From Spizellomyces punctatus DAOM BR117 (lineage: Eukaryota): DNA of 26,754 nucleotides. A program made the translations under genes and the position numbers. The notes below the pieces were generated by a model, which did not search any database, had not been told where the DNA came from, and saw only the letters and a program-made list of their open reading frames with translations. How positions within the stretch are numbered: position 1 is the first letter of the stretch; each line of letters starts with the position of its first letter. The stretch lies in assembly GCA_000182565.2 (NCBI GenBank), contig KQ257456.1. The stretch is one strand, 5' to 3'. Below are positions 7,658 through 24,783 of the stretch, piece by piece.

Positions 7658-10600
7658 ATGGCCGTTCCCCAACAACCTCCTTCTCCTGCCAATATTGCAA
7701 ACTCACATTTTGGTAAGTAGTTGAAATGCCTGAGTGATTCCCAACTGAGGTACTGGTGAACGGCGTCGTGTGTATGCAACGAGGACTGCGAGTCGACCCT
7801 GCACAAGGCCCGGAACCTAGGCAAAAAGGATTTGCCATTCTGCTTCTGCACAGTCAGTTCTCGACCCGATTTACAGAGTGCACCGCACATCCACATGCTA
7901 CCTCAATCTTGCCAAAGAGATTTGGGACTAACTTTTCCCTTTGGCGGTCTTTTTCTTGCTAGGGTTTGGGCATTACCGAAGGGATTCACGGACCATGATG
8001 GGGCAGACGGCAACCGACGCTCGCTTGCTACTCGAACGGACCGGTTCCGATCTTCAAGCCTACTCCATTTCTACCACACAGACGAACGTTCTTCCCCAAC
8101 GGACAGCCTCCAGACAACCTACCTCGTACCCTTTACGTAGCAGCTCTACCACCTTTGCCCGGCACGTTGGATCTGCAACACTGGCAACTCCTGTTCAGTT
8201 GTACGCGCCGTCAAACACCGATCCAGCATTGTACGCACAATTCCCACAACACATGCTAAAGCCCATTGTAACGCTGCCACCTGTCCAGCAAACTCAGCAG
8301 CCAGCATTTCTCGGTGGCGCTTCGGCCGAAACCTACCATCAACACTTTCAATCTTCCCTTCAGCAAACGTACGCTCAACCGCATGCACCACAACTGCAAC
8401 AACCAACAGCTGCACCATCTTCACAATCGCTGCAACTCTTGCAGCCGCTTGAGCCTCTGCAATCCCTCCAACAATCCGTTCAACAGCCGCAACAGCAGCA
8501 GCAGAATCACCATCATGCATCAACGCTCTATTTTCCGCAGCACAACCTTCCCGCCGGAGCCACGGCCGTTGTCCCCGTCGCCCCCGGCGCCGCCTATCCC
8601 CTCCACGCCGTCAATTACATCAATGTTGCGAATCCAAGCCCGTCATTTGCCCACTTTACTGCCAACATTACCCAAATGCCGAATCAAATCTACTATCAGC
8701 CGATCATGTATCACCAACCTCATCCGATGCCGATGCATGCACTCGCATATGGCGGTTTGGCATACAGTGGTCTTGGAACGCAGGAAATCGTTGGAGGCTC
8801 GACATTTAGCGCGCTGGGAACATCAGGTATTGATGGGTGTAGCATTGGAACAGGGTCCATACCTGGATCGGCAATGGGACTGGTTCCTACGCCTGCTTCC
8901 ATTCCTCCGACCAGGGAATGGTTGGGTATGTCCTTGCAAATTTTAGTAGTGTCGCGGTGAGGTGATTGACTTGTTCTTTCCTCTATAGAACAAGGACTCA
9001 GTATAGCTCATGACAAGTACAATGCGGGCGACTTTACCGGTGCCTACAACCTACTGCAGACGCTGTACCAAGCGAATCAAGCACATCTTCCTACGCTACT
9101 CCTACTCGGATGCACATGTTATTCGCTGAACCTGCATCAGTTGTCCATTCATTACAACAATCTGATCCTGCAACTGGATCCGCACTTTGCAGAGGCGTTT
9201 TCCAATCTCGGAACAACCTATCGGGTATTATTCATTGTATGTTTATCTGTATGGGCGTCTACTAATCGTGTCCTGCAGGCTATGGCGCAGAGTGGTGTAA
9301 ACAATACCGGAAGTCCAAGCTACAACCTGAACATGGCTGAGCAGTACTATCGCATTGCGATTTCAATTCGACCAAAGTACTGGGATGCGAGTATCAATTT
9401 GGCAGGATTGTTAAGCGCCCATGGCCGTTATGATGAGGCGATTCTCGTGTACACAGCATATGAGCGCGCTCTGGAAGAAGAGTTTGAAGCGGATGAGAGA
9501 TTTGATTTGATGGTCGATATGGCCAGAGACGGCGCAGAAGACAGTGACTTTGTGACACTGCTGACCGACATTGAGAAGCGACGAAAGGCGCGCATCACCT
9601 ATGAAAAAGCATCCGGTGCAAGTGCCACTGGTGAAGGTAGCGGCTGGACAGATGGACGGCGTCGAGATTTGTATTACGCAAAGGCCAGTCTTATTTATGC
9701 GATGGGGGATATCGTTCGCGCCAAGTACGAGTTTATCAAGGGTCTGGTGGCGATTGGTCTAGATCTTGTTTCCGTCTATTCTCAGGCTAGCAGTGGGGTG
9801 CTTCCTCTTCCAACCGTCACACCAGCGCAATCTTTGGTGGCCTTGCAACAGCAGCAGCAACTTAAGGGCCTCAAGATGAATCTCGAGTACAATAACACAG
9901 CCTCAGCCATCCTGCAGACCCTGGCAAAGATTTACCAGGACGCCCAGCAAATGGCGTTGGCTGTGTCATTCTACTACATTGCGCTGAGTATCTGTCCCAA
10001 TGCGAATACCTGTAACAACATCGGTATTCTGCTTGCTCAACAGCGATTACACGAAGCTATTTCGTGGTACGAGTTTGGACTGAACCTCGAGCAGAACCAC
10101 GTGCATCTTTTGACGAATCTAGGGTCTGCGTTGAAGGATCGAGGGCAAGTGAATGAAGGGATCGCGTGCTACCAACGCGCAATATCTATTCAACCCGATT
10201 TCTTTATTGCCTTGGCGAATTTGGCGAATGTGTATAAGGATTTGGGTCGTGTGGAAGAAGGAATTGACCTCTACCGACGAGCCCTTAAAGTCAAACCCGA
10301 TTTTATCGAAGCCTTTTGCAATTACGTCAACAGTCTGTTGTTTATTTGCGATTGGGAAGAGCGGGATAACAATCTGAAGAGGATCTATCAGATTGTTGAT
10401 CAGCAGCTTCGAGATGGTCGCAAACAGGTGCCGAAATTGGTACCGACTGTTCTACCATTCCACACATTTACCTATGCCAGTTTGTCGGCTTGGATGGTCC
10501 GTGAAATCAGTCGGCGGAATGCGGAGCGGGTGCTGTGGAATGTGTTGGTTAGCGATTGGTTCCCTGGATTCCCAGAGCGACCTGTTAAAGGGGCGGCTGG

Positions 10601-12952
10601 ACTATTGGATGGCAGAAATAGTAGAAAGGTTTCAACGGTGCAGCCTAATGCAATGGAGCAGGCAATGCATTACCCGTATCCTTATCCACCACCACCACCG
10701 CCGAGCCCACACATTCGGGTTGGATACTTGTCGTCCGACTTTAATAACCATCCACTGGCACATCTCATGCAGTCCGTGTTTGGTCTGCACGATCGGACGC
10801 GGTTCCAAGTTTATTGCTATTCGCTTTCTCCCACGGACAACTCACCATATCGGGCCAAAATCGAACGGGAAGCAGATGTCTTTTTGGATGTGTCGAGTTG
10901 GTCCATCAAGGAAATCGTCGAGCGTATCGCATTGGTGGATCAGATTCATATTCTGTGCAATTTGAATGGGTACACCAAGGGCGGACGTAATGAAGTCTTT
11001 GCTGCGCGTCCGGCTGTTGTGCAGATGCAATTTATGGGATTCGCTGGGACGATGGGCGCGGGTTCCGTTTACGATCCTGACAATGATAAGGAAGGTGATA
11101 GCAAGGGGCAATCAAAGATTGAGGAGTTGTTAGATGATGGAGACGATGTAAATACGACTGAAGAAGACGATGATGAGATGTTTGACAATGTCAAGGAACG
11201 GTGGTTGGACTATCTTTTAACGGATGAAATCGCATCTCCGCGCAAATTTGTGTGTGGTGAACCGCTGGAAGCAGACGAAAAGTTACCTACGGATGGTACA
11301 AAGCTGATACATCGTGGTCTTGTCCGCCGAAAGGATGATGCAAATAGGATTTACACGGAAGGGCTGGTGTTTATGCCCAATACCTATTTCGTAAACGATC
11401 ATCGGCAGGGTTTCCGGGAGACGGAGGACGCTGAAATTGATGACATTGTCATGGGCCACGGGGCGTCTGTTAAGGTGGAAAACGGCAAAACCGGCGATGT
11501 GGATGAAGGATATGATAGCGATGATGATTTAACAGAGGATGAGCGGTGTCGCTGGCGCAAAGAGCAGATTCGGCGGTTGAAGATGCGGGGAGAGCTGTTC
11601 CCATGGTTGCGGGAAGATACTGTTATATTTGCAAATTTCAATCAGTTGTACAAGGTATGCTGTGTTGGCTTTGCTTTCTCACTGGTTCATTTTAATAATT
11701 CTTTCGGTGCTAGGTGGATCCTGAGATTTTTGCAACGTGGATGAGGATTATCAAACGCGTTCCAAATTCAATTCTTTGGCTGTTACGCTTTCCTCCTGCA
11801 GGAGAAGCGTATTTGAGAAAGAAGGCTGTGGAATTGGTTGGAGAGGCGGTTGCTCAGCGGCTCATCTTCACTGGTAGGTAAAAATGGTTATGTCTGTTTG
11901 TATAAGCGTGTGTCACCAATTGAATTTCTGCAGATGTGGCACCCAAACATTTGCACATCCATCGCGGCCGTATTGCGGATGTTTTCTTGGACACGCCAGA
12001 GTGTAATGCCCACACGACTGCCGCAGATATTTTGTGGAGCGGAACTCCGGTCGTCACTTACCCAAAATATGATTTCAAAATGTGCAGCCGAGTGTGTGCA
12101 TCCATTGCGTATGCAACGGGCCGATGGTCGCGATCGGATCTAGCTGGTTTGGAAGGAGGGATCGAGACTGCTGAACAAGCCCGGGCGGGTATTCGGTTGG
12201 AAGGTGTGGAGCGGCTCAAGGACAAGTGGCTTCTGGGTCATTGGATGGTTGTCAAGAGTTACCAAGAGTACGAAGATATCGCTGTGAGACTCGGGCGTGG
12301 AATGAAATGGGGCTGGAAACGCGTTGACGCTTGGAGAGATCATGTACGAATGACCAATAAGCGACCGGTGGTCAATACCATTGTGGAATCGAGGGCTATT
12401 TCTACTAATCCGGCAAGCACGAACCCGCGTATCCCCCCCAGGCATATCTTGGCTCAACCACAAACGTCGCAAGAACACAGTCGACAAGTTACTCGATCTC
12501 AAATCAGCCATACCAGCAACAGCAGCCATATCCCCATGTCGAGCAGTATTGCGTACGTCCTGAACCCGACCACCGTACCATGTCTTCCAGATACACCCCC
12601 ACCGCATCTGGCCCCTGCTACACCCTTTTATCCCACCCGCCCCACCTGCACGCACATTTACACGCCCTTGTCAAGCACCCTCGCCATCCGCCTCCGCCGC
12701 CGTCTCTTTCTGACGCGAGATGAGTGCGCCCTCTTTGATACACCTCGTTGGGTAAGAGGTCTTGAACAAGCCTTTGAGAAGTCCTACGCGCGGTGGGCTC
12801 AGGCGTGGGCAAGACTTGAGCGAAGACGGGGCATCCCGTCTAGCACGAAACGGAAGCAACGGGCCACGTCACGATGTTTGTGGATTAGGGACACTACTGT
12901 CCATGGTGGACGGACGGGGCATTTGAATTCTATTCAAACCGAGAGGATGTGA
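7658..12952 (+). CDS. OGT: O-GlcNAc transferase (GT41; TPR repeats plus two-lobed catalytic domain), ~1602 aa
   Basis: Exons 7658-7712, 7963-8925, 8989-9224, 9279-11654, 11714-11873 and 11934-12952 total 4809 nt and stay in frame. Intron 1 has a GTAAGT donor and GACTAAC branch site; the alternative start is ATG 7995. TPR motifs include AHDKYNAGDF, AEAFSNLGTTY, LTNLGSALKDRG and ALANLANVYKDLG. Catalytic motifs are RVGYLSSDFNNHPLAHLM, NLNGYTKGGRNEVFAARPA, GFAGTMGA, FANFNQLYKVDP, ILWLLRFP and DVFLDTPECNAHTTAADILWSGTPVVT. Confidence 0.95.
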
Positions 12953-14699: not shown

Positions 14700-15552
14700 G
14701 CTTGTTATTGTTACCAATCTTAAAGGGCATTATCTTTGTTAGTTTTTGAAAACCTGAAAATGAATATCTAACATTTTAAGGATCTACATCTACTCAGCAG
14801 CTGTTTTTGGGTTGAATGCATGTGTCTCCTCGATTGTTTCCACCCGGGACGGAGCTCCATTGGGCTTGAAGCCACTTCTTTGTTTTACATCCCCACCATG
14901 TTTAAGCAAGTCTGTAGGGGCTGTAAGGTGCAATGACCCTTTGTCTCCTGTGGTGTGAACCCTGTGGTTCCTGCAAACAGATCGCGATTTGAAATTTGAG
15001 AATAATACGACTACGCATGGCTGAGTGCGTCTCACTGGGATCTTTTAGGTTGAAGGTTCACCACAAAAAGGGTAACACTGTCCAGGTCCGCCCCCATGTC
15101 ATGTCCACAGACGCATAATCAATCGTCGATACCATGAAGAAAATATCTGGTAGCGCGGCCACAAATAGCAAGCAACCCTGAGCATATTGTCGACGCAGTT
15201 CTTTGACGTTGTGTTCAAAAGTCGGTCAATAACATTTCTCCTGGGCCTGGTTGGGTTCTGTCCAGAACTTTTTCTGACCCCAAAATATAGACCGTTGCTG
15301 TTATTTTCCTCCCTCCGTTCTGAGTGCAAAACCCGCCCAGATGAACTTGAGCAGTTTTTCAGACTTTCTGTAACCTGCACTTACTCTGATCACTACCAAG
15401 CACTCGATTTTAAGCACTCACTGAATTGGGAGCTCCACGGAAAGCCTCTTGGGTCAGTTATTTTTCGTAAAAGTAAGATAGTATTATCGAAAAGACATTT
15501 AATCCGCTACTGTCGGTGCAAACAGAAGTACATTCTCTATCAACATCCAGCC

Positions 15553-16482
15553 ATGTCGGTATGCTCAGATGTATACAGTGACCCTGTGCTGACGGCCGTC
15601 TATAACAACAATCGGGACCTAATGATTTACGCACTCATTATGGCGGTCCTGTCTCTTGGATTTGTTTGGGATTATCTACCTAGTCTCCCCATGCGGGCGA
15701 GTCGATATGCCATAATTATTACCGCTGTATCGAACGTCCTGTGGACAATTGTAGAGATTCTCGACTGGACTTATCCTTGGTCCTGTCAAGCATTCGGCCC
15801 AAGGGGTCTAATTACCATGCAAATTCTTACGTTGATCTTTGACAGTATTGCGAACAGTGGCTTTGTCTTCTTCACCATCTACCGAACGGTGAAACTCTTG
15901 ACGAGAAATGAGCGAATTCACATGCTTTCGTCAACTGTGCTAGCCCTCCTCGCCGGCACGACGTCCATAGTCGCTTGGACAAATTACATCAAAAAGCTCA
16001 CCAGCGATGAAAGTATTCTCGTCGAAATATACGACAATTGGGTTATCATCTATTACGTTCTCTGGACAACGGCGGTAGAAATGGGTGCTTTGACGATAGT
16101 TTTGCTCAAAGTTTTTCAGGCCGCTATTGTTCGCAAGAGAATCACCAGCGTGCAGCAACAAAGTAACGCAAGCTTATGGCACGCGACGCTTGGAATTGCC
16201 ATCCGCTACGCACTCATCATCGTGCTCCAGTACTACAATCTCAAGTACTGGTTTTCAGCCACCCCCACAAACATTGCAACTGCGTGTTATTCAACCCTGC
16301 GTAGTATCATGGTCATTCTTACGCTTACAGACCAAGTGAAAGTACAAACCATCCTTGGTATGAACAATGCGAGCCAAGCGTCGACTGACTCAAATCCTCG
16401 AAATCCTGTGAGCAAAGCCTGTGCTACAGGGGCAGGCCGAGTAGGGTCGATTCTGAGGACTGATATACAGGATTCGGTTTGA
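15553..16482 (+). CDS. Intronless multi-pass (about 7 TM) membrane protein, GPCR-like topology, 309 aa
   Basis: The first ATG of the long open frame is at 15553 (CAGCCATGT); the upstream TTG-started extension looks non-coding. There are seven hydrophobic stretches, a Cys before TM3 (WSCQAF), FFTIYR at the end of TM3, a basic loop after TM5 and a polar C-terminal tail. Family not recognised. Confidence 0.7.
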   Translation: MSVCSDVYSDPVLTAVYNNNRDLMIYALIMAVLSLGFVWDYLPSLPMRASRYAIIITAVSNVLWTIVEILDWTYPWSCQAFGPRGLITMQILTLIFDSIANSGFVFFTIYRTVKLLTRNERIHMLSSTVLALLAGTTSIVAWTNYIKKLTSDESILVEIYDNWVIIYYVLWTTAVEMGALTIVLLKVFQAAIVRKRITSVQQQSNASLWHATLGIAIRYALIIVLQYYNLKYWFSATPTNIATACYSTLRSIMVILTLTDQVKVQTILGMNNASQASTDSNPRNPVSKACATGAGRVGSILRTDIQDSV

Positions 16483-16751
16483 GGACTTCGTTTCTGGAGA
16501 TGCTTTAATGTGTAGGGTTATTCTGCTACGCGTGTTTGAATATGTTTTGAAGGGTTACCTTGGATGAGAACCGTTGTCTGTAGGGAGCTCATTTATGTAC
16601 GGGCACATTGGAAGACTGAGTGCTCAACAGTTTAATATTATATTATTTCTGGTCGACTTTCCGGTGATGAGAGTACTGTTGTATATTATATATGTATCTA
16701 CATATTTCTCAGAAAATCATAGCCCTCTCTACATCTAACTTGTCATCATCT

Positions 16752-19700
16752 TCAACTCCAAAAAGGACACAGCGCCAATGCAGCCAGCCTGAAATGCATT
16801 TTCGCAAATGGCCAAAAAATAACCGTCAACGTGAGGAGAAATCCGACCATGCCATGCAACATCGCAATGAATATGCCAGCGACAATGATGACTCCATAAT
16901 TAACGAGAGCTAGATACCACTTGGGTAGCTTTCTCACTCTCCCTTCACGTTCTCGCTTGGGGTCCAATCCATATGGACAGACGGTCATTGGCACGCGACG
17001 CAGAATCCACCAAGCACCGGGAAGCAAGACGATCGTCAAAGCAACCAAGAAGGCGCTACAGATGTATACCAAGGCCAGAAAGAACCCTCCGAACAGTGCG
17101 AATAATCCATTGGCGATCATTGCAGTAATTCCTGTGATTCTTGACGTTTCTGTAAAGTATTTGAATGGTACTTTCGTTGGAGTCCTGTCACCCTCGTCTC
17201 GTGCATCCGCTTGACGTGCGAAATTCAGAAAAACTTGCTCCAGTGATGTCCGGCTAAGGGCATAGTCTTCGATGCCCGCATCTTGGACATTTTGGCGGTA
17301 GGCTTCGATGGCTTCGAACACAGTCGCGAGTGACCCAATGGAATGCTGCGAAATTTCATATCGTAGATGTCGGTTACCTTGTTCAACGAGCTGAGCGTTA
17401 GGGAACGTGTTTGAGACGAAATCTTGAACTTGAGAGGTTGACTGTTTCGATCTAGTCTGAAGATCGAGTTGGTATCCGGACCCGTAGCGTGTCCTTAGAT
17501 GTTGAGCACTACCGAGGCAGCGCAGTTGTCCAGCAGTCATAACTCCGATTCTGCGATCAGTGATCAGAATTTGAATAAAGCAACCCATGTACATAGATGT
17601 GCGCCGCGATATGATTACCTCGTGCTAATCGCCTCGGCCTCCTCCATACTGTGAGTTGTCAATATGACTGCATGCTCTTTCCTCAAGTCTTGGATCAGAT
17701 TCCACATTGATCGCTTGCTGACTGGATCCATTCCAGTACTTGGCTCGTCAAGAATGATGACCGGAGGTTTGCCAATGACGGCTATGCCAACAGATAGTTT
17801 GCGGCGATTGCCCCCACTGAGATGGCGACTCTGTTTGTCTGCATGGGGAACGAGGTCGAGCGACTGGAGAAGAGCGTTCACGGTCATTGTGATTTGTATC
17901 GTTGGGACACCTTTCAGCCGCGCGTAAAGTTCCAAGTGTTCTCGCGTGGTCAGCGTGGGCTGTGATTCAAGTTAGGAAGCGTACAGGAAACAAAGTAGCG
18001 AGTAAAACCATTTCTTACCAGTAAAGCGTCGAATTGAGGCGTGACACCCATTGACCGTTGTACCCTCGAGAGGTTGTCAAGAATCGAGAATCCATTTACA
18101 ACACAATCGCCTCCAGACGGCAGCTGATCGCCAGCCAAGATTGACAGCGTTGTAGTTTTTCCTATTGTCGGCTACATTGAGTGCCACGCTCAGTGTCGTG
18201 TGGTGATCAACGATGCTCACCTGCTCCGTTTGGTCCAAGCAATGCAAAGCAGTCTCCACGATTGATGCCCAAGGACAAGCCCTTCACCGCTTGCTTTTCC
18301 CTCCCATCCGCGTTGGCTCCATAGTATTTGATTAATCGTTTGATCAGAACTGCAGAGTCTTTTCCAGCTGCCTTCTCCACACGTTGTCGTTCTCTGACTA
18401 CATCCTCATCATCATCTTTGAGATCCTCTGCAGATCCTCGATGCGCTTGACGCTTTCGCAACGCTTTCGCGGACAACCACAGCACAAATCCATCCCACAT
18501 ATCGCTGCCGACCGCTCCAAAGAAAAATACAAAGCACTGTGCAATCTGGATAATAAGCACAAAAGCGATTGTCTCCCTAGGTGTGCGAAGCGCAATATCG
18601 CCAACAGTACAACGCAGTGGCCCATAGTTTGCAAGTGCTAGGAAGTTGTAAACAAATCCCGCGGCGGGACTGTAGACAGAGACGATACCAGTAACAAGAT
18701 TCAGCGTAGATTGCGGTGATTGAGCACCGTAGAAAAGATTCATCAACAGGGTAATGAAGAAGAAACCGGCTCCAAGCAGGATCGCAAGGATACTGCCAGT
18801 AGCACCGGCGGAAGTTTCAAATCGAGAGTGAAGCGCATACTGCCAGTGGGTAAAAACAGGCACAAACATAAGCTCACGTCAATAGTGGACACTCGAAAGG
18901 GAATGATAGACATACCCCGAATGCAGATGCCGACAAAAGGTACACTGTATGGAGGGAAACCATCAGTAACCAATAATGGGTGCGCATGTCGAATCTACAT
19001 CAAGGACTTACGTAAAATTGAGCAGAATATCCATCCCAACGCATCTTTGATCATGGGCGTCCTGAACGCTGCAAAAATGACGGTAGCAGCGGCAGCAATA
19101 GCAACGGCATTGATCACATCCCACAGCCAATAAGCCAGCCAATATGCCAAGGGCCTTGCCCCACTAACTCTTTGCTGATGCATCGTCTTGCCCATACGCT
19201 CCCTCACCAGCGATGCCGTTGACAGGGCAGGAAGAAGAGCAAAGACAGCAACGAGCATCAGGGCCCCGCCTATCGTGCCACCGTCTGACACGTCCATAGC
19301 GCGCGGGGATGAGAAGCGATGGATAGCTGAAGATATTGCATAACGACCTGCTGGGGCGGCTGGGGTATTGTTGAAACGGGAAGCGATGAAAGCATTGTGG
19401 GCCAGGTTGATAAGGCTTGCCTGAACCACAATTTCCCCAGAAAAATCTGCTTGTGCAGCGTTATATGACCCATCCCAGGTAGACGTGTCTGCGTTGGCGA
19501 CAAAAGTCGAGAACTGAAGGGCCGCACTGAAGTTGTATATGGAATTATCGACGTGAAATTGGTACGCTGTATCATCGGGCACCACAAACGGCTGCACAGT
19601 CGGGTCGACCAGATACACAATCGCATTGTCAGGCTGAACAATGAGAGGCTTATTCGACCAGTGGAGAGGAACGACTGGCTCTGCCGGGGAAGGTGTGCAA

Positions 19701-22700
19701 GTACCATCCAGGTTGCGCATCATCCATGCCACTACGATTGTAGCAACGATTGGCGCCACGAAACGGACGATGGGAAGGATTGGTTGTCGTCGGTTGAGGA
19801 AAACCACTTTACGGAAAAGAGTGTACGTCTGCTGGGCGAAACTTGGTAAGCGCTCTGCCTGGGCGCCAGTTTGGAACACGGTCTGATTCTTGCCAGCGAC
19901 ATTGATCACTGTCATCTCATGACCACTGGCATCTTGAAAAAATAATGAGGATTTGGGCAGTATAACATAGGAGGCCGACTGACATTACCAAGAGAGACCT
20001 TCTCGTCATGTCGTACAAGTGTAGACTCATCTTTCTCCTCAGCACTCACGGCGATTTTCATCAACACTTCCTCTAAACTAGTTACCGAAAGCTCGTAGTT
20101 TTCCACACCTAGGGCCAACCCCTTATCTCCCTCAAGACTCCTCAAAAGCCGCGGGAAACTAAATCTAGATTCTTTGGGCAACTGGAATGCAATTTCCCGA
20201 CCGGCCTCGCTCCGTAGTATCGCCTTCCCCACAAAGGTCTTTACAAGCTGTTCAATGGCTCCAACGTCCGACAGACCGTTGCGCAGAAGCGTTAAGGTGT
20301 AACCAACTCCGAAGCGTTCCTTTAAGAACATGGAAGTACCCCAAGCGCGAAGTTTGCCAACTGCCATGATAACGATGCGGTCTCCCAAATGATCTGCTTC
20401 GTCCATGAAATGGGTCGTCAGGACAACAGTGCGCCCTTCCTTATTCATTCTCACAACGTCCCAGATCGCTCGACGACTCAGAGGATCCATTCCTGAGGTA
20501 GGCTCATCCAAAATCACAATCCGCGATCCGCCTAGGTACGCAATTGCAACTGAGAGTTTTCGTTTTTGCCCGCCAGACAAAGTTGATACATAACTGTCTG
20601 CCTTTTCGCTTAGATCGCATCGGGTGATGGTTTGCTTTACTTCCAGTGCAACTCCTTGCCTAGCCGCCCCCTTCAAACCAGCGAAAAGTTGCAGATGTTC
20701 TCGGACTGTCAGGGTTGGCCATAAAACGTCATGCTGCGGACAAATTCCCAAGGTATCTTCGGCGAGTTTGGCATTTCGGGCGTCTCGAGGCTTCCTGCCC
20801 CGGAGGAGTGCCTCCCCGGCAGTCGGCGAGAGAAGACCTGTAAGCATGGAAATCTACGGCGGAAGAGGATGAGCATCACCACACCAATTCCAAGTTATGG
20901 AAGAGCACGGTAGCCATCTCACCAACGTGGTCTTTCCAGCTCCGTTCTTCCCTAGCAAAACCATTGTCTCTCCCTGATAAGCGTTCAAGGTCAGATCTTG
21001 AACCGCATGCTGAACTTTTCCCGTTGTCGGGTTTCGAAAGCTTCTGCTCAGATCTCGTATGCTGATACCAAACTGGCCGCTGCTAAGAGTATCTTCAATT
21101 AGCGGAGCATCATTGCCCAAAGGTGAAAAAGCCGTGTTGCGGATTTGATGAGCTGGGTCTTTCCTCCAGAACGAGTACCAAGGCTGATGTCCGCTTGACA
21201 CGGATGTGACAGTTATCTCCAAATACCATCCGAGACATGTGTATAAAATCGCATCAAGTACGAGAATGAGAAGACAAGTTGTAAAGCGAATGCCCTGATA
21301 TTCCTCTGTAGACGAGCTATCATTTTAGTAATGAACGTATTTTGCCTGGAAAGAAGGCTCCATACCGCTCCAATTGGCAAACTGGACCCCAATTAGCCGC
21401 CCTTCTTGATGTGCGATGACCCGGTTGGCGTAGACAAAAGAAAATGGCGAAATGAAAGAGAGCGCCACTTTTGCTGCAGGTCCGAGGTCCCACTGATTAT
21501 TGTTGATAAACATGGCAGCAGCACTGACGCCAGTAAACAGCCTTTGTATGTGACGCATAGCCGACAATGTTAGGGCAAAAACATAGCAAGCAGTGTTTGA
21601 GCAACTTACGCTATCGAAAACAGTCCACCTGATCGCGGCGACTTCATTAAGACTTCAAGAATAAAGGCCCAGCCAATGACCGGCAAGCTCGAGATAACAA
21701 GCCATAGAAACAATATGAACAGATTCGTCCTTGTATAAAATGTGACCTTCATGATGACCGCGGAGATCAGCCACGCTGGTAGAAACAACACGGTGTAGGT
21801 AACGAGCCAGCTGATGTTGTAGGATGTTCGACTGAGACCCATCATGAACATGCCCTCTCGAAGTTTCGACTATGTCATCCAGGGCGTGAGTAGATTTGAA
21901 TGGCCAAAATCGATCGTCAATATACATATCGAACAGCATACCTTTTTTTCCTCTAGGATGGCGGCCACGATCGAATAGAGCATCGGAAGAAAAACACATA
22001 TGAGCATACCACCAGACCCTATGATCTTCTGTGAGGAGTACGGACTATTTTATCCAGGTGAAAGCAACGTACATCCTTCCATGAAGGCATAGAACATCGC
22101 CTATTATAAATGATCACACCCAGCTGCTTAAAAACTAAGTGTCTGAACATGTACCGGGAAGTCCACATACCTTTACAGCGGCTCCCTGAACCTGCTGAGT
22201 CGAGACTTTACTTGCACTAAGCGTGCTAGCCAACGTTGGATGTATAACAGAAATGATGGATCTTTCAATTGCGACCTGGACATCGGCCATTGCTTCCTGG
22301 GGGAATTGCGAGGAGCATTAATATGTAGGCGAGTTTGCATTGTGTCACTTGAATGCGTACTGGAGGTTTGACTTGAAACCGCGCCCATTGACGGTCTATC
22401 GGATCCATTCTCAATGTATAATTCCATCCACCAGCAGAGGTCGGACCATGCAGTACAATGCCCGCCAAGCAGTCATTGATACGGCAATACTCATTCATTT
22501 GGTTATCGGAGGCAAACTGGCGAAGGCTGCCAGCGGACCGACTGAGCTCGGTGACAATCGCATTCACCTCGGGACTTGCAGCATCAATGACATAGCCGAG
22601 GGGCCCTAGATTCGATACTAGGTGGCGAATATCACTGTGGACAGGCTGAACACTTGTGTTTGCAAAGTTATTGAAATTGCTCCAACTAGTAGTGATCGGG

Positions 22701-22953
22701 AGAGTAAATAATCAAACGATGAGACTGATACTCTGAATGAGAAAGTGCTGTGGACTTACGTGTATACTACAAGGGCAATGACTACTAGAGGAAGCAGGAG
22801 TGCAATACAGAACTAGCTTACAATGACGAATTTAACATGGAAGGACTACCGTGTCTACGATCGTAAAGCTACCTGGGATGCTAAGGCCCGACGGCGGACC
22901 TGATATTCCTTTCTAACGAGTAAGCCTATGGGACGCAAAAAACCGCGCGCCAT
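16752..22953 (-). CDS. Full-length ABC transporter, subfamily A (TMD-NBD-R)x2, multi-exon, with an extra C-terminal membrane module
   Basis: ATG at 22953 ([22 protein letters not shown]). TMD1 contains EEKK...[21 protein letters not shown]1 has [45 protein letters not shown] and [17 protein letters not shown]1 has SLEEV. TMD2 contains [19 protein letters not shown]2 has [43 protein letters not shown] and [12 protein letters not shown]2 has [10 protein letters not shown]. Stop at 16752. Small exons between ~21900 and 22400 were not fully resolved. Confidence 0.93.
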
Positions 22954-24189: not shown

Positions 24190-24783
24190 TTAAGCGTCGG
24201 CAGCAGCCTTGCCCTTCGCAGCTTTCTTGGCACCAGCCTTGCCCTTCTTGGCAGCAGCCTTACCCTTCTTTGCCGCCGCCTTCTTGGCAGCAGCCTTAGC
24301 CTTATTCGCAGCTGCCTTCTTTGCACCCTTCTTCGCACCCTTCTTGGCACCCTTTTTGGCAGCCTTTTTCGCAGCCTTTTTGGCACCCTTCTTTGCAGCC
24401 TTCTTTGCAGCCTTCTTGGCAGCCGCATCCTCTACATCGCCAGCAGCGGCCGCGACTTCTGTCCCATTGTTGGCAGCTCCCGCATTAGGATCAAGAACCG
24501 CGACAGCGTTAGGATCGGCAGGAGCAGTCGCATTGTCTGCAGTGTTCGGATCGACCAAGGCTGCGGCGAGTCCAGCGCAGTCTCCACCAGTTGCACCGTT
24601 ATTGCAGTCAGCCTGAGCCAGGCCCTTGCCCTTACCCTTACCCTTACCGGCGTGTGGGGCTATAAACAGCAACAGCATATCAGTCCAAACAAGTCACGCG
24701 CGGCAAACAACAAAGATCCCCAACTTACAGGCAAGGGCAACTGCGGCGAGGACAGCAACAGTGAAGAATGAGAGCTTGACCAT
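24190..24783 (-). CDS. Small secreted Lys/Ala-rich repeat protein (174 aa; exons 24783-24729 and 24659-24190)
   Basis: MVKLSFFTVAVLAAVALA-S|PHAGKGKGKGKG... forms a classic signal peptide across a phase-1 intron (GTAAGT...CTGAT...TAG). It is followed by a two-Cys segment, three DPN units and about 75 aa of AAKK/GAKK repeats. TATAAAAA lies upstream on the minus strand (~24875-24882). Confidence 0.85.
24205..24425. repeat. Degenerate 12-nt coding tandem repeat (GCAGCCTTCTTK / GCACCCTTCTTN on +) encoding AAKK/GAKK
   Basis: Visible 12-nt periodicity at 24310-24425, decaying into 15-nt variants toward 24205. Differences between units are mostly at third codon positions of the minus-strand frame. 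Confidence 0.9.

What the first reader, a model, noticed from the sequence alone, without database searches (positions are those of the whole stretch)
16752..17117. ABCA transporter fused to a tandem YccF/DUF307-like membrane module at its C-terminus
Seen: after the normal ABCA end ([10 protein letters not shown]) the same exon continues without a stop into two related hydrophobic repeats. These are [50 protein letters not shown] (17117-16968) and [50 protein letters not shown] (16907-16758), joined by a charged linker. Established: the YccF (DUF307) repeat has the pattern N..W..FGG...A.......LL..TIIGIPF....F.LA..AL.PFG. It occurs twice in small bacterial inner-membrane proteins and also in Vnx1-type cation/H+ exchangers, whereas ABCA proteins normally end in a short soluble tail. 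Inference: an architecture I do not know from characterised ABCA proteins. It would add a third membrane module and, as a Rosetta-stone fusion, link YccF to lipid export.
Basis: partly seen in the sequence, partly recalled or inferred. Interest (0 to 1): 0.8.

Follow-up and report, generated by a model that had tools for sequence, protein, structure and literature searches.

The report
Chytrid ABCA transporter with YccF tail
A lipid-pump-type (ABCA) transporter gene of the chytrid fungus Spizellomyces punctatus really does run on, in the same exon, into a small four-helix membrane domain of the uncharacterised bacterial YccF family; several other chytrids keep the same fusion, and I found no paper describing it.

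Summary
The window is Spizellomyces punctatus DNA. A 16-exon minus-strand gene (22953..16752) encodes, letter for letter, the public 1741-aa protein SPPG_04879. Its last exon (17550..16752) runs without a stop from the end of NBD2, through the ABCA regulatory domain and the VFLNFA motif, into two YccF (PF03733) repeats.

YccF homology is solid:
- Pfam scores 39.8-42.8 bits on the tail, and each repeat hits alone.
- The profile-profile comparison gives probability 99.6%, E 7.6e-24.
- All family-invariant residues are kept.

AlphaFold2 gives a confident up-down four-helix bundle (pLDDT 92.8) with no specific match among solved folds.

The same fusion occurs in 7 chytrid species of 5 genera. The modules form one clade and are as conserved as the core transmembrane domains. 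I found none outside chytrids. Most records score below Pfam's cut-off, and no searchable paper describes the architecture.

RNA 3'-end reads place the poly(A) sites about 90 nt after the module's stop. They do not bridge the ABCA part and the module.

The function is inferred, not shown. My best reading is a C-terminal accessory or regulatory membrane domain tethered to the NBD "pinning helix". I class it as a new variant of a known kind, of moderate interest.

The parts
16752..22953 (-). Whole coding region of the ABCA-YccF gene (SPPG_04879, 1741 aa). It has 16 exons, GT-AG introns of 54-76 nt, and 5226 coding bases including the stop.
   Evidence: Exact threading of P0073 onto the window. 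tblastn with the S. palustris orthologue. Pfam finds ABC_tran x2, ABC2_membrane_3 x2, R1_ABCA1 and YccF. The best solved relatives are ABCA3 (E 3.9e-186) and ABCA1 (E 1.6e-185).
16752..17550 (-). Last exon (exon 16, 799 nt). It holds the end of NBD2, the regulatory domain R2, VFLNFA, the linker, both YccF repeats and the stop.
   Evidence: The preceding intron 17618..17551 is GTAATC...TCGCAG.
17253..17483 (-). ABCA C-terminal regulatory domain (residues 1499-1575).
   Evidence: Pfam PF23321 R1_ABCA1: 51.6 bits, E 1e-13 in the full protein; 46.1 bits in the ORF.
17217..17234 (-). VFLNFA motif (residues 1582-1587). It is the counterpart of the VFVNFA 'pinning helix' of ABCA1/ABCA4 and is the last ABCA-type element.
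   Evidence: Sequence. F1583 and A1587 are invariant in 6 of 6 full-length orthologues. PDB matches end at 1591-1595. The role of the motif in ABCA4 comes from a passage of PMC7932691.
17133..17216 (-). Linker (residues 1588-1615). It is charged and poorly conserved, and contains a short predicted pre-membrane helix (1605-1612 = 17165..17142) with invariant F1608.
   Evidence: Identity to the Geranomyces and Cladochytrium orthologues is 4-17%, against 29-42% in the repeats. AF2 helix at module residues 6-13. F1608 is invariant.
16968..17132 (-). YccF repeat 1 (residues 1616-1670): long helix A (1616-1647), a tight uncharged turn, helix B (1652-1666) and the PYG motif. N1623, G1631, P1653 and P1668 are invariant.
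   Evidence: Pfam hit of the repeat alone, profile 1-50/51. AF2 model. Invariant in 36 of 36 rows.
16923..16979 (-). Basic inter-repeat loop (residues 1667-1685), predicted cytosolic.
   Evidence: The stretch 1659-1685 (module residues 60-86) holds 8 K/R against 3 D/E in the window row; the mean over 36 rows is 3.97 against 1.81. Both hairpin turns carry no charge.
16755..16922 (-). YccF repeat 2 (residues 1686-1741): helix A' (1686-1716) and helix B' (1719-1735). The His pair H1708/H1728 is invariant; T1718 and P1723 are nearly invariant.
   Evidence: Pfam 36.1 bits for the repeat alone. AF2 model. H109 and H129 are present in 36 of 36 rows.
16752..16754 (-). Stop codon TGA.
16658..16751 (-). 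3' UTR, with two poly(A) addition sites at about 16665 and 16658.
   Evidence: RNA run X7: loose ends of T-runs before 16658 (4 reads) and 16665 (5 reads). Depth is 12-19 over 16682..16916 and falls to zero beyond 17105. No joints are listed.

Best explanation
SHOWN. One gene encodes one open reading frame: a complete full-length ABCA transporter (TMD1-NBD1-R1-TMD2-NBD2-R2-VFLNFA) followed by a 28-residue linker and a bona fide tandem YccF/DUF307 domain. The fusion arose once in chytrid fungi and has been kept under purifying selection as strong as that on the transporter's own membrane domains.

PREDICTED. The module is an up-down bundle of four helices (two helical hairpins). Its N-terminus, its basic middle loop and its C-terminus all lie on the cytosolic side. 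This fits its attachment to the cytosolic R2 domain.

INFERRED (my commitment, about 45% for this step).
- The bundle is a third, accessory membrane domain sitting in the same bilayer beside the TMDs.
- It hangs on a short tether directly behind the VFLNFA helix. In ABCA4 that helix pins the two NBDs together at the base of their tweezers-like motion.
- The module could therefore couple something it senses or binds in the membrane to NBD closure, that is, to pump activity. Candidate binding residues are the family-invariant intramembrane N1623 and the His pair H1708/H1728.
- By analogy only, it would be a C-terminal counterpart of the extra TMD0 of ABCC transporters.

The substrate of the pump is unknown.
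For: Continuous frame, single exon:
-.
- The product is identical to public P0073 (1732 of 1741 for my first model; threads P0073 exactly).

ABCA identity:
- Pfam.
- PDB phmmer: ABCA3 3.9e-186, ABCA1 1.6e-185, plus ABCA4 and ABCA7.
- The TMD2 of the model matches ABCA4 and ABCA1 at Z 25-28, rmsd about 3 A.

YccF identity:
-.
- hhalign probability 99.6%, E 7.6e-24 over 123 columns.
- 30 of 30 Atlas hits are YccF clusters.
- N24, G32, P54, P69, H109 and H129 are invariant in 36 of 36 rows.

Conservation of the fusion:
- All 13 hits longer than 300 aa among the 61 proteins at E<=1e-3 were Pfam-scanned; 2 more of the 61, of 245 and 267 aa, were scanned as well. 5 of the 13 are ABCA-type with the module at the C-terminus.
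- A profile search added 2 more Geranomyces variabilis records; 6 of 6 hits are chytrid ABCAs.
- Names and taxonomy.
- The 8 modules form one clade, support 100/97.
- Repeat identity is 29-42% against 24-38% for the TMDs and 4-17% for the linker.
- There is no Met conserved in all 6 rows at the module start (alignment).

Fold and topology:
- AF2 pLDDT 92.8, pTM 0.86.
- Charge counts.
- The YidC-depletion screen that lists E. coli YccF used GFP-tagged membrane proteins (passage of PMC3225971). That the tag is C-terminal, and that its fluorescence implies a cytoplasmic C-terminus, is recalled, not in the passage I saw.

Transcript:
- Poly(A) sites lie at 16658/16665, after the module's stop.
- There is no read pile or 3' end between the VFLNFA codons and the module in a 3'-biased library, and no joints.

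Pinning-helix role of VFVNFA: passage of PMC7932691.
Against: - No read bridges 17105..17433, so a single mRNA joining the ABCA part to the module is inferred from the ORF and from orthologues, not seen. Only about 6% of run X7 was read, and 122 reads were laid.
- Nothing here shows where the module sits relative to the TMDs. The AF2 model of the C-terminal half has pTM 0.46 and a poorly predicted NBD2, and I could not inspect inter-domain contacts.
- No function is known for any YccF protein: 26 papers hold any of the terms and none has one in its title or abstract. The sensing or regulatory role is therefore pure inference.
- The linker is poorly conserved. That fits a passive tether as well as an allosteric one.
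- In the full-length protein the Pfam YccF score is only 27.2 against a cut-off of 27. One orthologue (P0006) has no Pfam YccF hit at E<=1e-3.
Confidence: 0.5

Rival explanations
1. Passive accessory domain. The YccF bundle is only an extra membrane anchor that serves folding, sorting to a particular membrane, or oligomerisation of the transporter. It has no allosteric control of the ATPase cycle.
For: The linker and the inter-repeat loop are poorly conserved (4-17% identity). The extra TMD0 of some ABCC proteins is known mainly for trafficking and partner binding (recalled, not tested here). YccF is fused to unrelated partners in other organisms: proteins of 417-733 aa whose only Pfam hit is YccF, and a source's name 'YccF/Zn-finger protein'.
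Against: The family-invariant polar intramembrane residues (N, H, H) are retained in all 8 chytrid modules. A mere anchor would not need them. The repeats are as conserved as the core TMDs.
Confidence: 0.25
2. Independent functional unit. YccF is itself a small ion, proton or solute pathway, and the fusion merely co-localises it 1:1 with the ABCA pump, for example for charge or pH compensation. This would parallel its reported presence in cation/H+ exchanger-type proteins.
For: An invariant His pair lies at matching positions of helices A' and B'. One paper passage reports a YccF domain in non-plant CAX proteins (PMC11018787). Standalone YccF proteins are widespread in bacteria and occur in protists such as Chromera, Tetraparma and Petalomonas.
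Against: No transport activity has been reported for any YccF. A single four-helix bundle with uncharged tight turns offers no obvious pore. The structure search gives only generic four-helix-bundle matches (best Z 7.1 at rmsd 5.6 A).
Confidence: 0.12
3. Not one protein. The module is a separate small YccF gene product made from an internal promoter or start, or the ABCA protein normally ends earlier through unseen splicing. On this reading the 'fusion' is a gene-model artefact.
For: An ATG (M1620) lies just before repeat 1 in S. punctatus. RNA reads cover only 16635..17104 and a trace at 17434..17527, so continuity is not directly shown. All orthologue records are automatic gene predictions.
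Against: There is no stop between VFLNFA and the module in 8 records from 7 species. M1620 is Thr in S. palustris and is not conserved elsewhere. The 3'-biased RNA run shows no 3' end or poly(A) loose end between 17105 and 17433, where an ABCA-only mRNA would have to end, and no joints. In Spizellomyces the junction lies inside one exon.
Confidence: 0.05
4. A functionless appendage: a captured YccF gene that is drifting.
For: Pfam scores of most orthologues are below the cut-off (19.9-24.7 bits), which shows divergence from canonical YccF.
Against: It is retained in three named orders plus one incertae sedis lineage, with all invariant residues and no frame disruption. Identity in the repeats equals that of the TMDs and is 2-8 times that of the linker.
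Confidence: 0.03

Closest known systems
Human ABCA1 / ABCA3 / ABCA4 / ABCA7 (solved full-length ABCA lipid transporters)
   Same: The domain order TMD-ECD-NBD-R is present twice, with the R-domain Pfam family and a VFxNFA motif at the end of the ABCA core. E-values are 1e-166 to 4e-186. TMD2 of the model superposes at Z 24-28.
   Different: The solved proteins stop soon after the motif: all matches end at query residue 1591-1595, and no structural row among the 50 shown extends past residue 1590. The chytrid protein adds 28 + 126 residues that form a four-helix membrane domain. Its ECDs are much smaller (protein 1741 aa against 2146-2317 aa for the solved ABCA1, 4 and 7 chains).
Bacterial YccF (DUF307, Pfam PF03733), e.g. 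E. coli YccF
   Same: A tandem of two ~51-aa repeats with the same invariant N, GG, P, P-[FY]-G, H, T, P, H pattern. hhalign probability is 99.6%.
   Different: The bacterial proteins are standalone, at 120-180 aa. Here the domain is the C-terminal part of a 1741-aa ABC transporter. The conserved Trp after the Asn is Phe, PFG is PYG in 8 of 8 chytrid rows, and the inter-repeat loop is more basic.
TMD0 of long ABCC transporters (MRP1, SUR1; recalled, not tested here)
   Same: The concept is shared: an extra membrane domain appended to a complete ABC core, used for regulation, trafficking or partner binding.
   Different: TMD0 is N-terminal, has five helices, is unrelated in sequence and belongs to a different ABC fold class. 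The YccF module is C-terminal, has four helices and follows the cytosolic regulatory domain.
Cation/H+ exchanger (CAX/Vnx1-type) proteins said to carry a YccF domain
   Different: No Na_Ca_ex family appears among the 21 Pfam families listed for P0073 at E<=0.01. The partner here is a primary active ABC pump. I could not fetch a Vnx1 sequence to compare the modules.

Membership tests
ABCA subfamily, full-length transporter | Two ABC ATPase domains and two ABC-2-type membrane domains in one chain | tested here: met
   PF00005 at 199.7 bits in 2 stretches; PF12698 at 120 bits in 2 stretches.
ABCA subfamily, full-length transporter | Closest solved relatives are ABCA proteins over both halves | tested here: met
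   ABCA3 3.9e-186, ABCA1 1.6e-185, ABCA4 3e-167, ABCA7 1.4e-166. The next class (ABCB) is at 1e-35.
ABCA subfamily, full-length transporter | Cytosolic regulatory domain after the NBD and a C-terminal VFVNFA-type motif | tested here: met
   PF23321 at 51.6 bits, residues 1499-1575. VFLNFA at 1582-1587, with F and A invariant in 6 of 6 orthologues.
ABCA subfamily, full-length transporter | Extracytosolic domain between the first two helices of each TMD | tested here: inconclusive
   Hydropathy leaves about 150-aa gaps at 51-203 and 865-1005. The second is modelled at pLDDT below 50. These domains are much smaller than in animal ABCAs.
YccF / DUF307 (PF03733) | Pfam match above the curated cut-off | tested here: met
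   42.8 bits (tail) and 39.8 bits (last-exon ORF) against a cut-off of 27. The full-length protein scores only 27.2 bits.
YccF / DUF307 (PF03733) | Two tandem copies of the ~51-aa repeat | tested here: met
   Each repeat hits alone (20.9 and 36.1 bits). Repeat against repeat gives E 4e-6. hhalign covers both repeats.
YccF / DUF307 (PF03733) | Family-invariant residues (N, G-G, P, P-[FY]-G, H, T, P, H) | tested here: met
   N24, G32, P54, P69, H109 and H129 are in 36 of 36 rows. G31 is in 33, T119 in 34, P124 in 35 and P139 in 33 of 36.
YccF / DUF307 (PF03733) | Small standalone inner-membrane protein | tested here: not met
   Here it is the C-terminal domain of a 1741-aa protein. It is a member of the domain family, not of the standalone protein type.
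Vnx1/CAX-type cation exchanger carrying YccF | Na_Ca_ex exchanger domains | tested here: not met
   No Na_Ca_ex family appears among the 21 Pfam families at E<=0.01 for P0073.
ABCC-type TMD0 accessory domain | N-terminal five-helix bundle preceding TMD1 | tested here: not met
   The module is C-terminal and has four helices. This is an analogy of role only.

The most novel reading that the evidence does not exclude
YccF/DUF307 is a general membrane-embedded sensor or ligand-binding module for transporters. In chytrids it has been wired, through a short tether behind the NBD-pinning VFLNFA helix, into a new kind of ABC regulation: a C-terminal 'TMD-C' that gates an ABCA lipid pump according to something read inside the bilayer (proton, metal or lipid head-group) at the invariant Asn / His-His site. 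This would also give the first functional handle on a DUF that is widespread in bacteria.
Probability: 0.15. Interest if true: 0.75.

Novelty: new variant of a known kind. Interest (0 to 1): 0.5.

Why it matters
ABCA transporters are medically important lipid pumps, and how their cytosolic regulatory end controls the ATPase cycle is still being worked out. A natural variant with a conserved membrane domain hung directly behind the pinning helix is an unplanned experiment on that question.

YccF is found widely in bacteria (its nearest Atlas clusters are 91-100% bacterial, commonest phyla Bacillota, Chloroflexota and Pseudomonadota). It has no known function: 26 papers in the searchable library mention it, none in the title or abstract. 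A conserved fusion to a pump gives it a first testable context.

S. punctatus can be transformed (title and abstract of PMC7213984, search listing). Tagging, truncation and point mutants are therefore feasible in the native host.

The limits are real:
- The sequences are already public as 'hypothetical protein'.
- The fusion is confined, as far as I could see, to one fungal class.
- No function is shown.

Tried and rejected
- **Docking test.** I ran complex prediction with TMD1 (1-425), TMD2 (830-1245) and the module as partner. It gave no answer: score 0.00 in two runs, controls not run, alignments not used. This is no evidence either way.
- **AF2 of the C-terminal half (residues 819-1741).** Mean pLDDT 68.9, pTM 0.46, NBD2 and ECD2 poorly modelled. 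It is too weak to say where the module sits, and I have no access to its contacts.
- **Fold searches with the module model.** Foldseek against the PDB gave no match at E<=1e-3; the best was E 1.1, ferritin. VIA-align wide gave a best Z of 7.1 at rmsd 5.6 A to ferritin-like bundles, within the range the tool calls a common arrangement for helical bundles. I therefore name no related solved fold, and this does not show that the fold is new.
- **PDB by sequence with the module.** 0 matches at E<=10.
- **Single-sequence word-index searches.** Both found only the S. palustris orthologue (1 of 1581 candidates; 1 of 441).
- **Metagenome scan with the module profile.** 82 pattern matches, none confirmed by tblastn.
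- **Whole-genome search.** No genome is held for this window, so I could not check the second full-length ABC-A paralogue reported for S. punctatus.
- **Origin of the module.** The tree leaves the sister group of the chytrid clade unresolved.
- **Contig runs X3-X5.** They are colinear with the genome, intron included, so they say nothing about transcripts.
- **Earlier findings of this scan.** Nothing relevant.
- **Supplements of PMC2848647.** These are the gene lists of fungal ABC-A proteins, which might note this gene's extra helices.
- **First spliced models.** The model skipped small exons and the model mis-set one mini-exon. One search replaces both.
Full report
**What is in the sequence**

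On the minus strand the frame 17624..16752 is open for 290 codons. It reads the end of an ABC ATPase domain, then a stretch that Pfam recognises as the ABCA1-like regulatory domain (PF23321, 46.1 bits), then ...[10 protein letters not shown]. With no stop it continues through a charged 28-residue linker into two hydrophobic repeats and ends at TGA 16754..16752.

**The gene**

- A search with the 142-aa tail found a 1741-aa protein of Spizellomyces sp. 'palustris' (P0002, 89% identical in the tail).
- The cluster of P0002 also holds SPPG_04879 of Spizellomyces punctatus DAOM BR117 (P0073).
- Threading P0073 exactly onto the window gives 16 exons from 22953 to 16752. All introns are GT-AG and 54-76 nt long, and the coding length is 5226 bases. 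The window is therefore S. punctatus, and the public gene model already contains the tail.
- Exon 16 (17550..16752) holds the end of NBD2, R2, VFLNFA, the linker and both repeats.

**It is a genuine ABCA**

- Pfam finds two ABC_tran and two ABC2_membrane_3 regions plus R1_ABCA1.
- The best solved relatives are ABCA3 (3.9e-186), ABCA1 (1.6e-185), ABCA4 and ABCA7. The next class, ABCB, follows at about 1e-35.
- Every ABCA match ends at query residue 1591-1595.
- In a structural comparison of my model of the C-terminal half, none of the 50 rows shown reaches beyond residue 1590 of the protein.
- The last 146 residues therefore have no counterpart in any solved ABCA.

**The tail is a genuine YccF domain**

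- Pfam PF03733 scores 42.8 bits on the tail and 39.8 bits on the last-exon ORF, in two stretches, against a cut-off of 27.
- Each repeat alone hits the model (20.9 and 36.1 bits). The repeats match each other at 30% identity over 40 aa, E 4e-6.
- A profile of six chytrid tails against a profile of 18 standalone YccF proteins gives probability 99.6%, E 7.6e-24 over 123 columns spanning both repeats.
- In a 36-row alignment (8 chytrid tails and 28 other YccFs) N24, G32, P54, P69, H109 and H129 of the module are invariant. These are N1623, G1631, P1653, P1668, H1708 and H1728 of the protein. G31, T119, P124 and P139 are nearly invariant.
- The protein-language-model Atlas returns 30 of 30 YccF clusters.

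**Distribution**

- HMMER against 1.84 billion representatives gave 61 proteins at E<=1e-3.
- I scanned 15 of the 61 with Pfam, including all 13 that exceed 300 aa.
- Five of the 13 carry ABC_tran and/or the ABCA regulatory domain with the YccF-like region at the very C-terminus:
  - S. palustris;
  - Geranomyces michiganensis (1818 aa);
  - Cladochytrium replicatum (1763 aa);
  - two fragments, from Borealophlyctis nickersoniae (304 aa) and Blyttiomyces helicus (604 aa).
- A profile search for longer proteins returned 6 hits, all chytrid ABCAs, and added two Geranomyces variabilis records.
- With S. punctatus that makes 7 species in 5 genera. They belong to Spizellomycetales, Rhizophlyctidales, Cladochytriales and one incertae sedis lineage, all in Chytridiomycetes.
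- I found no fused form outside chytrids, and a metagenome scan found none. Sensitivity was limited, though: Cladochytrium itself scored only E 3.5e-4 with the single sequence.
- The other hits are small standalone YccFs from bacteria and from some protists (Chromera, the Tetraparma cluster, Petalomonas), plus a few mid-sized proteins with no other Pfam domain.

**One origin, kept by selection**

- The 8 chytrid modules form one clade (ultrafast bootstrap 100, SH-aLRT 97). The rest of the tree is a polytomy, so the donor lineage is unknown.
- Against the Geranomyces and Cladochytrium orthologues, the two repeats are 29-42% identical. The TM2-6 and TM8-12 bundles are 24-38% identical, and the linker and inter-repeat loop 4-17%.
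- Against S. palustris the repeats are 89% identical and the whole protein 92%.

**Why it is not annotated**

- In the full-length S. punctatus protein the Pfam YccF score drops to 27.2 bits, just at the cut-off.
- The other orthologues score 19.9-24.7 bits or nothing.
- None of the clusters returned lists PF03733 among its precomputed domains.
- The records are named 'hypothetical protein' or 'ABC transporter domain-containing protein'.

**Literature**

- A search for YccF, DUF307, PF03733, IPR005185 or the Pfam name found 26 papers with a whole-word match. None has a term in its title or abstract, and those whose YccF passage I read mention it only in passing.
[quoted passage not shown] It says no fungal ABC-A has a known function. 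The passages I saw do not mention an extra membrane module, and its supplementary gene lists could not be opened.

**Fold and topology**

- AlphaFold2 on the module with the 36-row alignment gives mean pLDDT 92.8 and pTM 0.86.
- The model has a short pre-membrane helix (residues 6-13 of the module), a long helix A (17-48), helix B (53-67), a loop, a long helix A' (87-117) and helix B' (120-136).
- The only structural matches are generic up-down four-helix bundles. This tells me the arrangement of the helices but names no relative.
- The A-B and A'-B' turns carry no charge in any of the 36 rows.
- The stretch from the end of B through the inter-repeat loop has 8 K/R against 3 D/E here, and a mean of 3.97 against 1.81 over all rows.
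- By the positive-inside rule (established knowledge) the loop is cytosolic. The module then enters and leaves the membrane twice, starting and ending in the cytosol, as its attachment to cytosolic R2 requires.

**RNA**

- One RNA run of the same species label (X7) is strongly 3'-biased. About 6% of it was read, and 122 reads were laid.
- Depth is 12-19 over 16682..16916, falls to 1-3 up to 17057, and is zero from 17105 to 17433.
- T-run loose ends mark poly(A) addition at 16658 (4 reads) and 16665 (5 reads), about 90 nt after the stop.
- No joints are listed.
- The module-coding region is therefore in a polyadenylated minus-strand transcript. There is no sign of a 3' end between the ABCA core and the module. 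No read physically links the two.

**Mechanism (inferred)**

- In ABCA4 the VFVNFA motif forms one of two 'pinning helices' that hold the two NBDs at the base of their tweezers-like closure (passage of PMC7932691).
- In the chytrid protein the chain leaves that helix and, 28 residues later, enters the membrane as the YccF bundle.
- Fully extended, 28 residues span roughly 95 A (my estimate). That is enough to reach the bilayer beside the transporter but not to wander far.
- I therefore read the module as a third, accessory membrane domain next to the TMDs.
- It may couple an event at its invariant intramembrane Asn / His-His positions to NBD closure.
- Its position relative to the TMDs is not shown (see Tried and rejected).
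- The rivals are a passive anchor or sorting domain, an independent ion or solute unit, a separate gene product, and a functionless appendage. They are listed with their evidence.

**Verdict**

The observation and the architectural reading are right. The sequences are public, but the architecture is, as far as I could search, undescribed and mostly invisible to Pfam thresholds. It is a new variant of a known kind (an ABCA with a C-terminal YccF membrane domain) and appears restricted to chytrids. No function is demonstrated. Interest is moderate, 0.5.

Noticed in passing
window 7932-12952 (+): Long ORFs with Glyco_transf_41 (194 bits) and many TPR repeats. This is an O-GlcNAc-transferase-like gene upstream of the ABCA locus.
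   Followed up: partly
window 15169-16482 (+): A 436-aa open frame convergent with the ABCA gene. It is rich in hydrophobic stretches and has no Pfam hit at E<=1e-3. RNA run X7 covers its 3' side (16400-16634) in the opposite read direction, so it is expressed.
   Followed up: partly
window 24190-24693 (-): An open frame that is mostly Ala/Lys repeats (AAKKAAKK...), about 1.2 kb upstream of the ABCA start. I cannot say whether it is a real gene or a low-complexity frame. The overlapping plus-strand frame has no Pfam hit.
   Followed up: no
window 22073-22100 and 18916-18944 (-): Two mini-exons of 28 and 29 nt in the ABCA gene (exons 5 and 12). My first similarity-guided models skipped or mis-set them.
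   Followed up: yes
module tree: The module tree groups Spizellomyces with Borealophlyctis (Rhizophlyctidales), and Geranomyces (Spizellomycetales) with Blyttiomyces. Support is 98/90 and 98/82. This disagrees with taxonomy. It may be old paralogy of the fused gene or an artefact of using only 126 columns.
   Followed up: no
P0006, P0074, P0075 (Geranomyces), C-termini: The Geranomyces proteins carry a further polar extension after the YccF module (about 60 aa in P0006; the two G. variabilis records are about 75-85 aa longer than the Spizellomyces protein). The Spizellomyces proteins end 2 residues after the last conserved Pro.
   Followed up: no
alignment A3, module position 70: All 8 chytrid modules have PYG where the 28 other YccF rows have PFG. 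This is a clade signature of the fused form.
   Followed up: partly
P0031, P0042, P0061, P0007, P0051, P0060: Uncultured-source proteins of 417-733 aa carry the YccF tandem at one end and have no other Pfam domain. One cluster is named 'YccF/Zn-finger protein' by its source. YccF is therefore fused to other, unknown partners too.
   Followed up: partly
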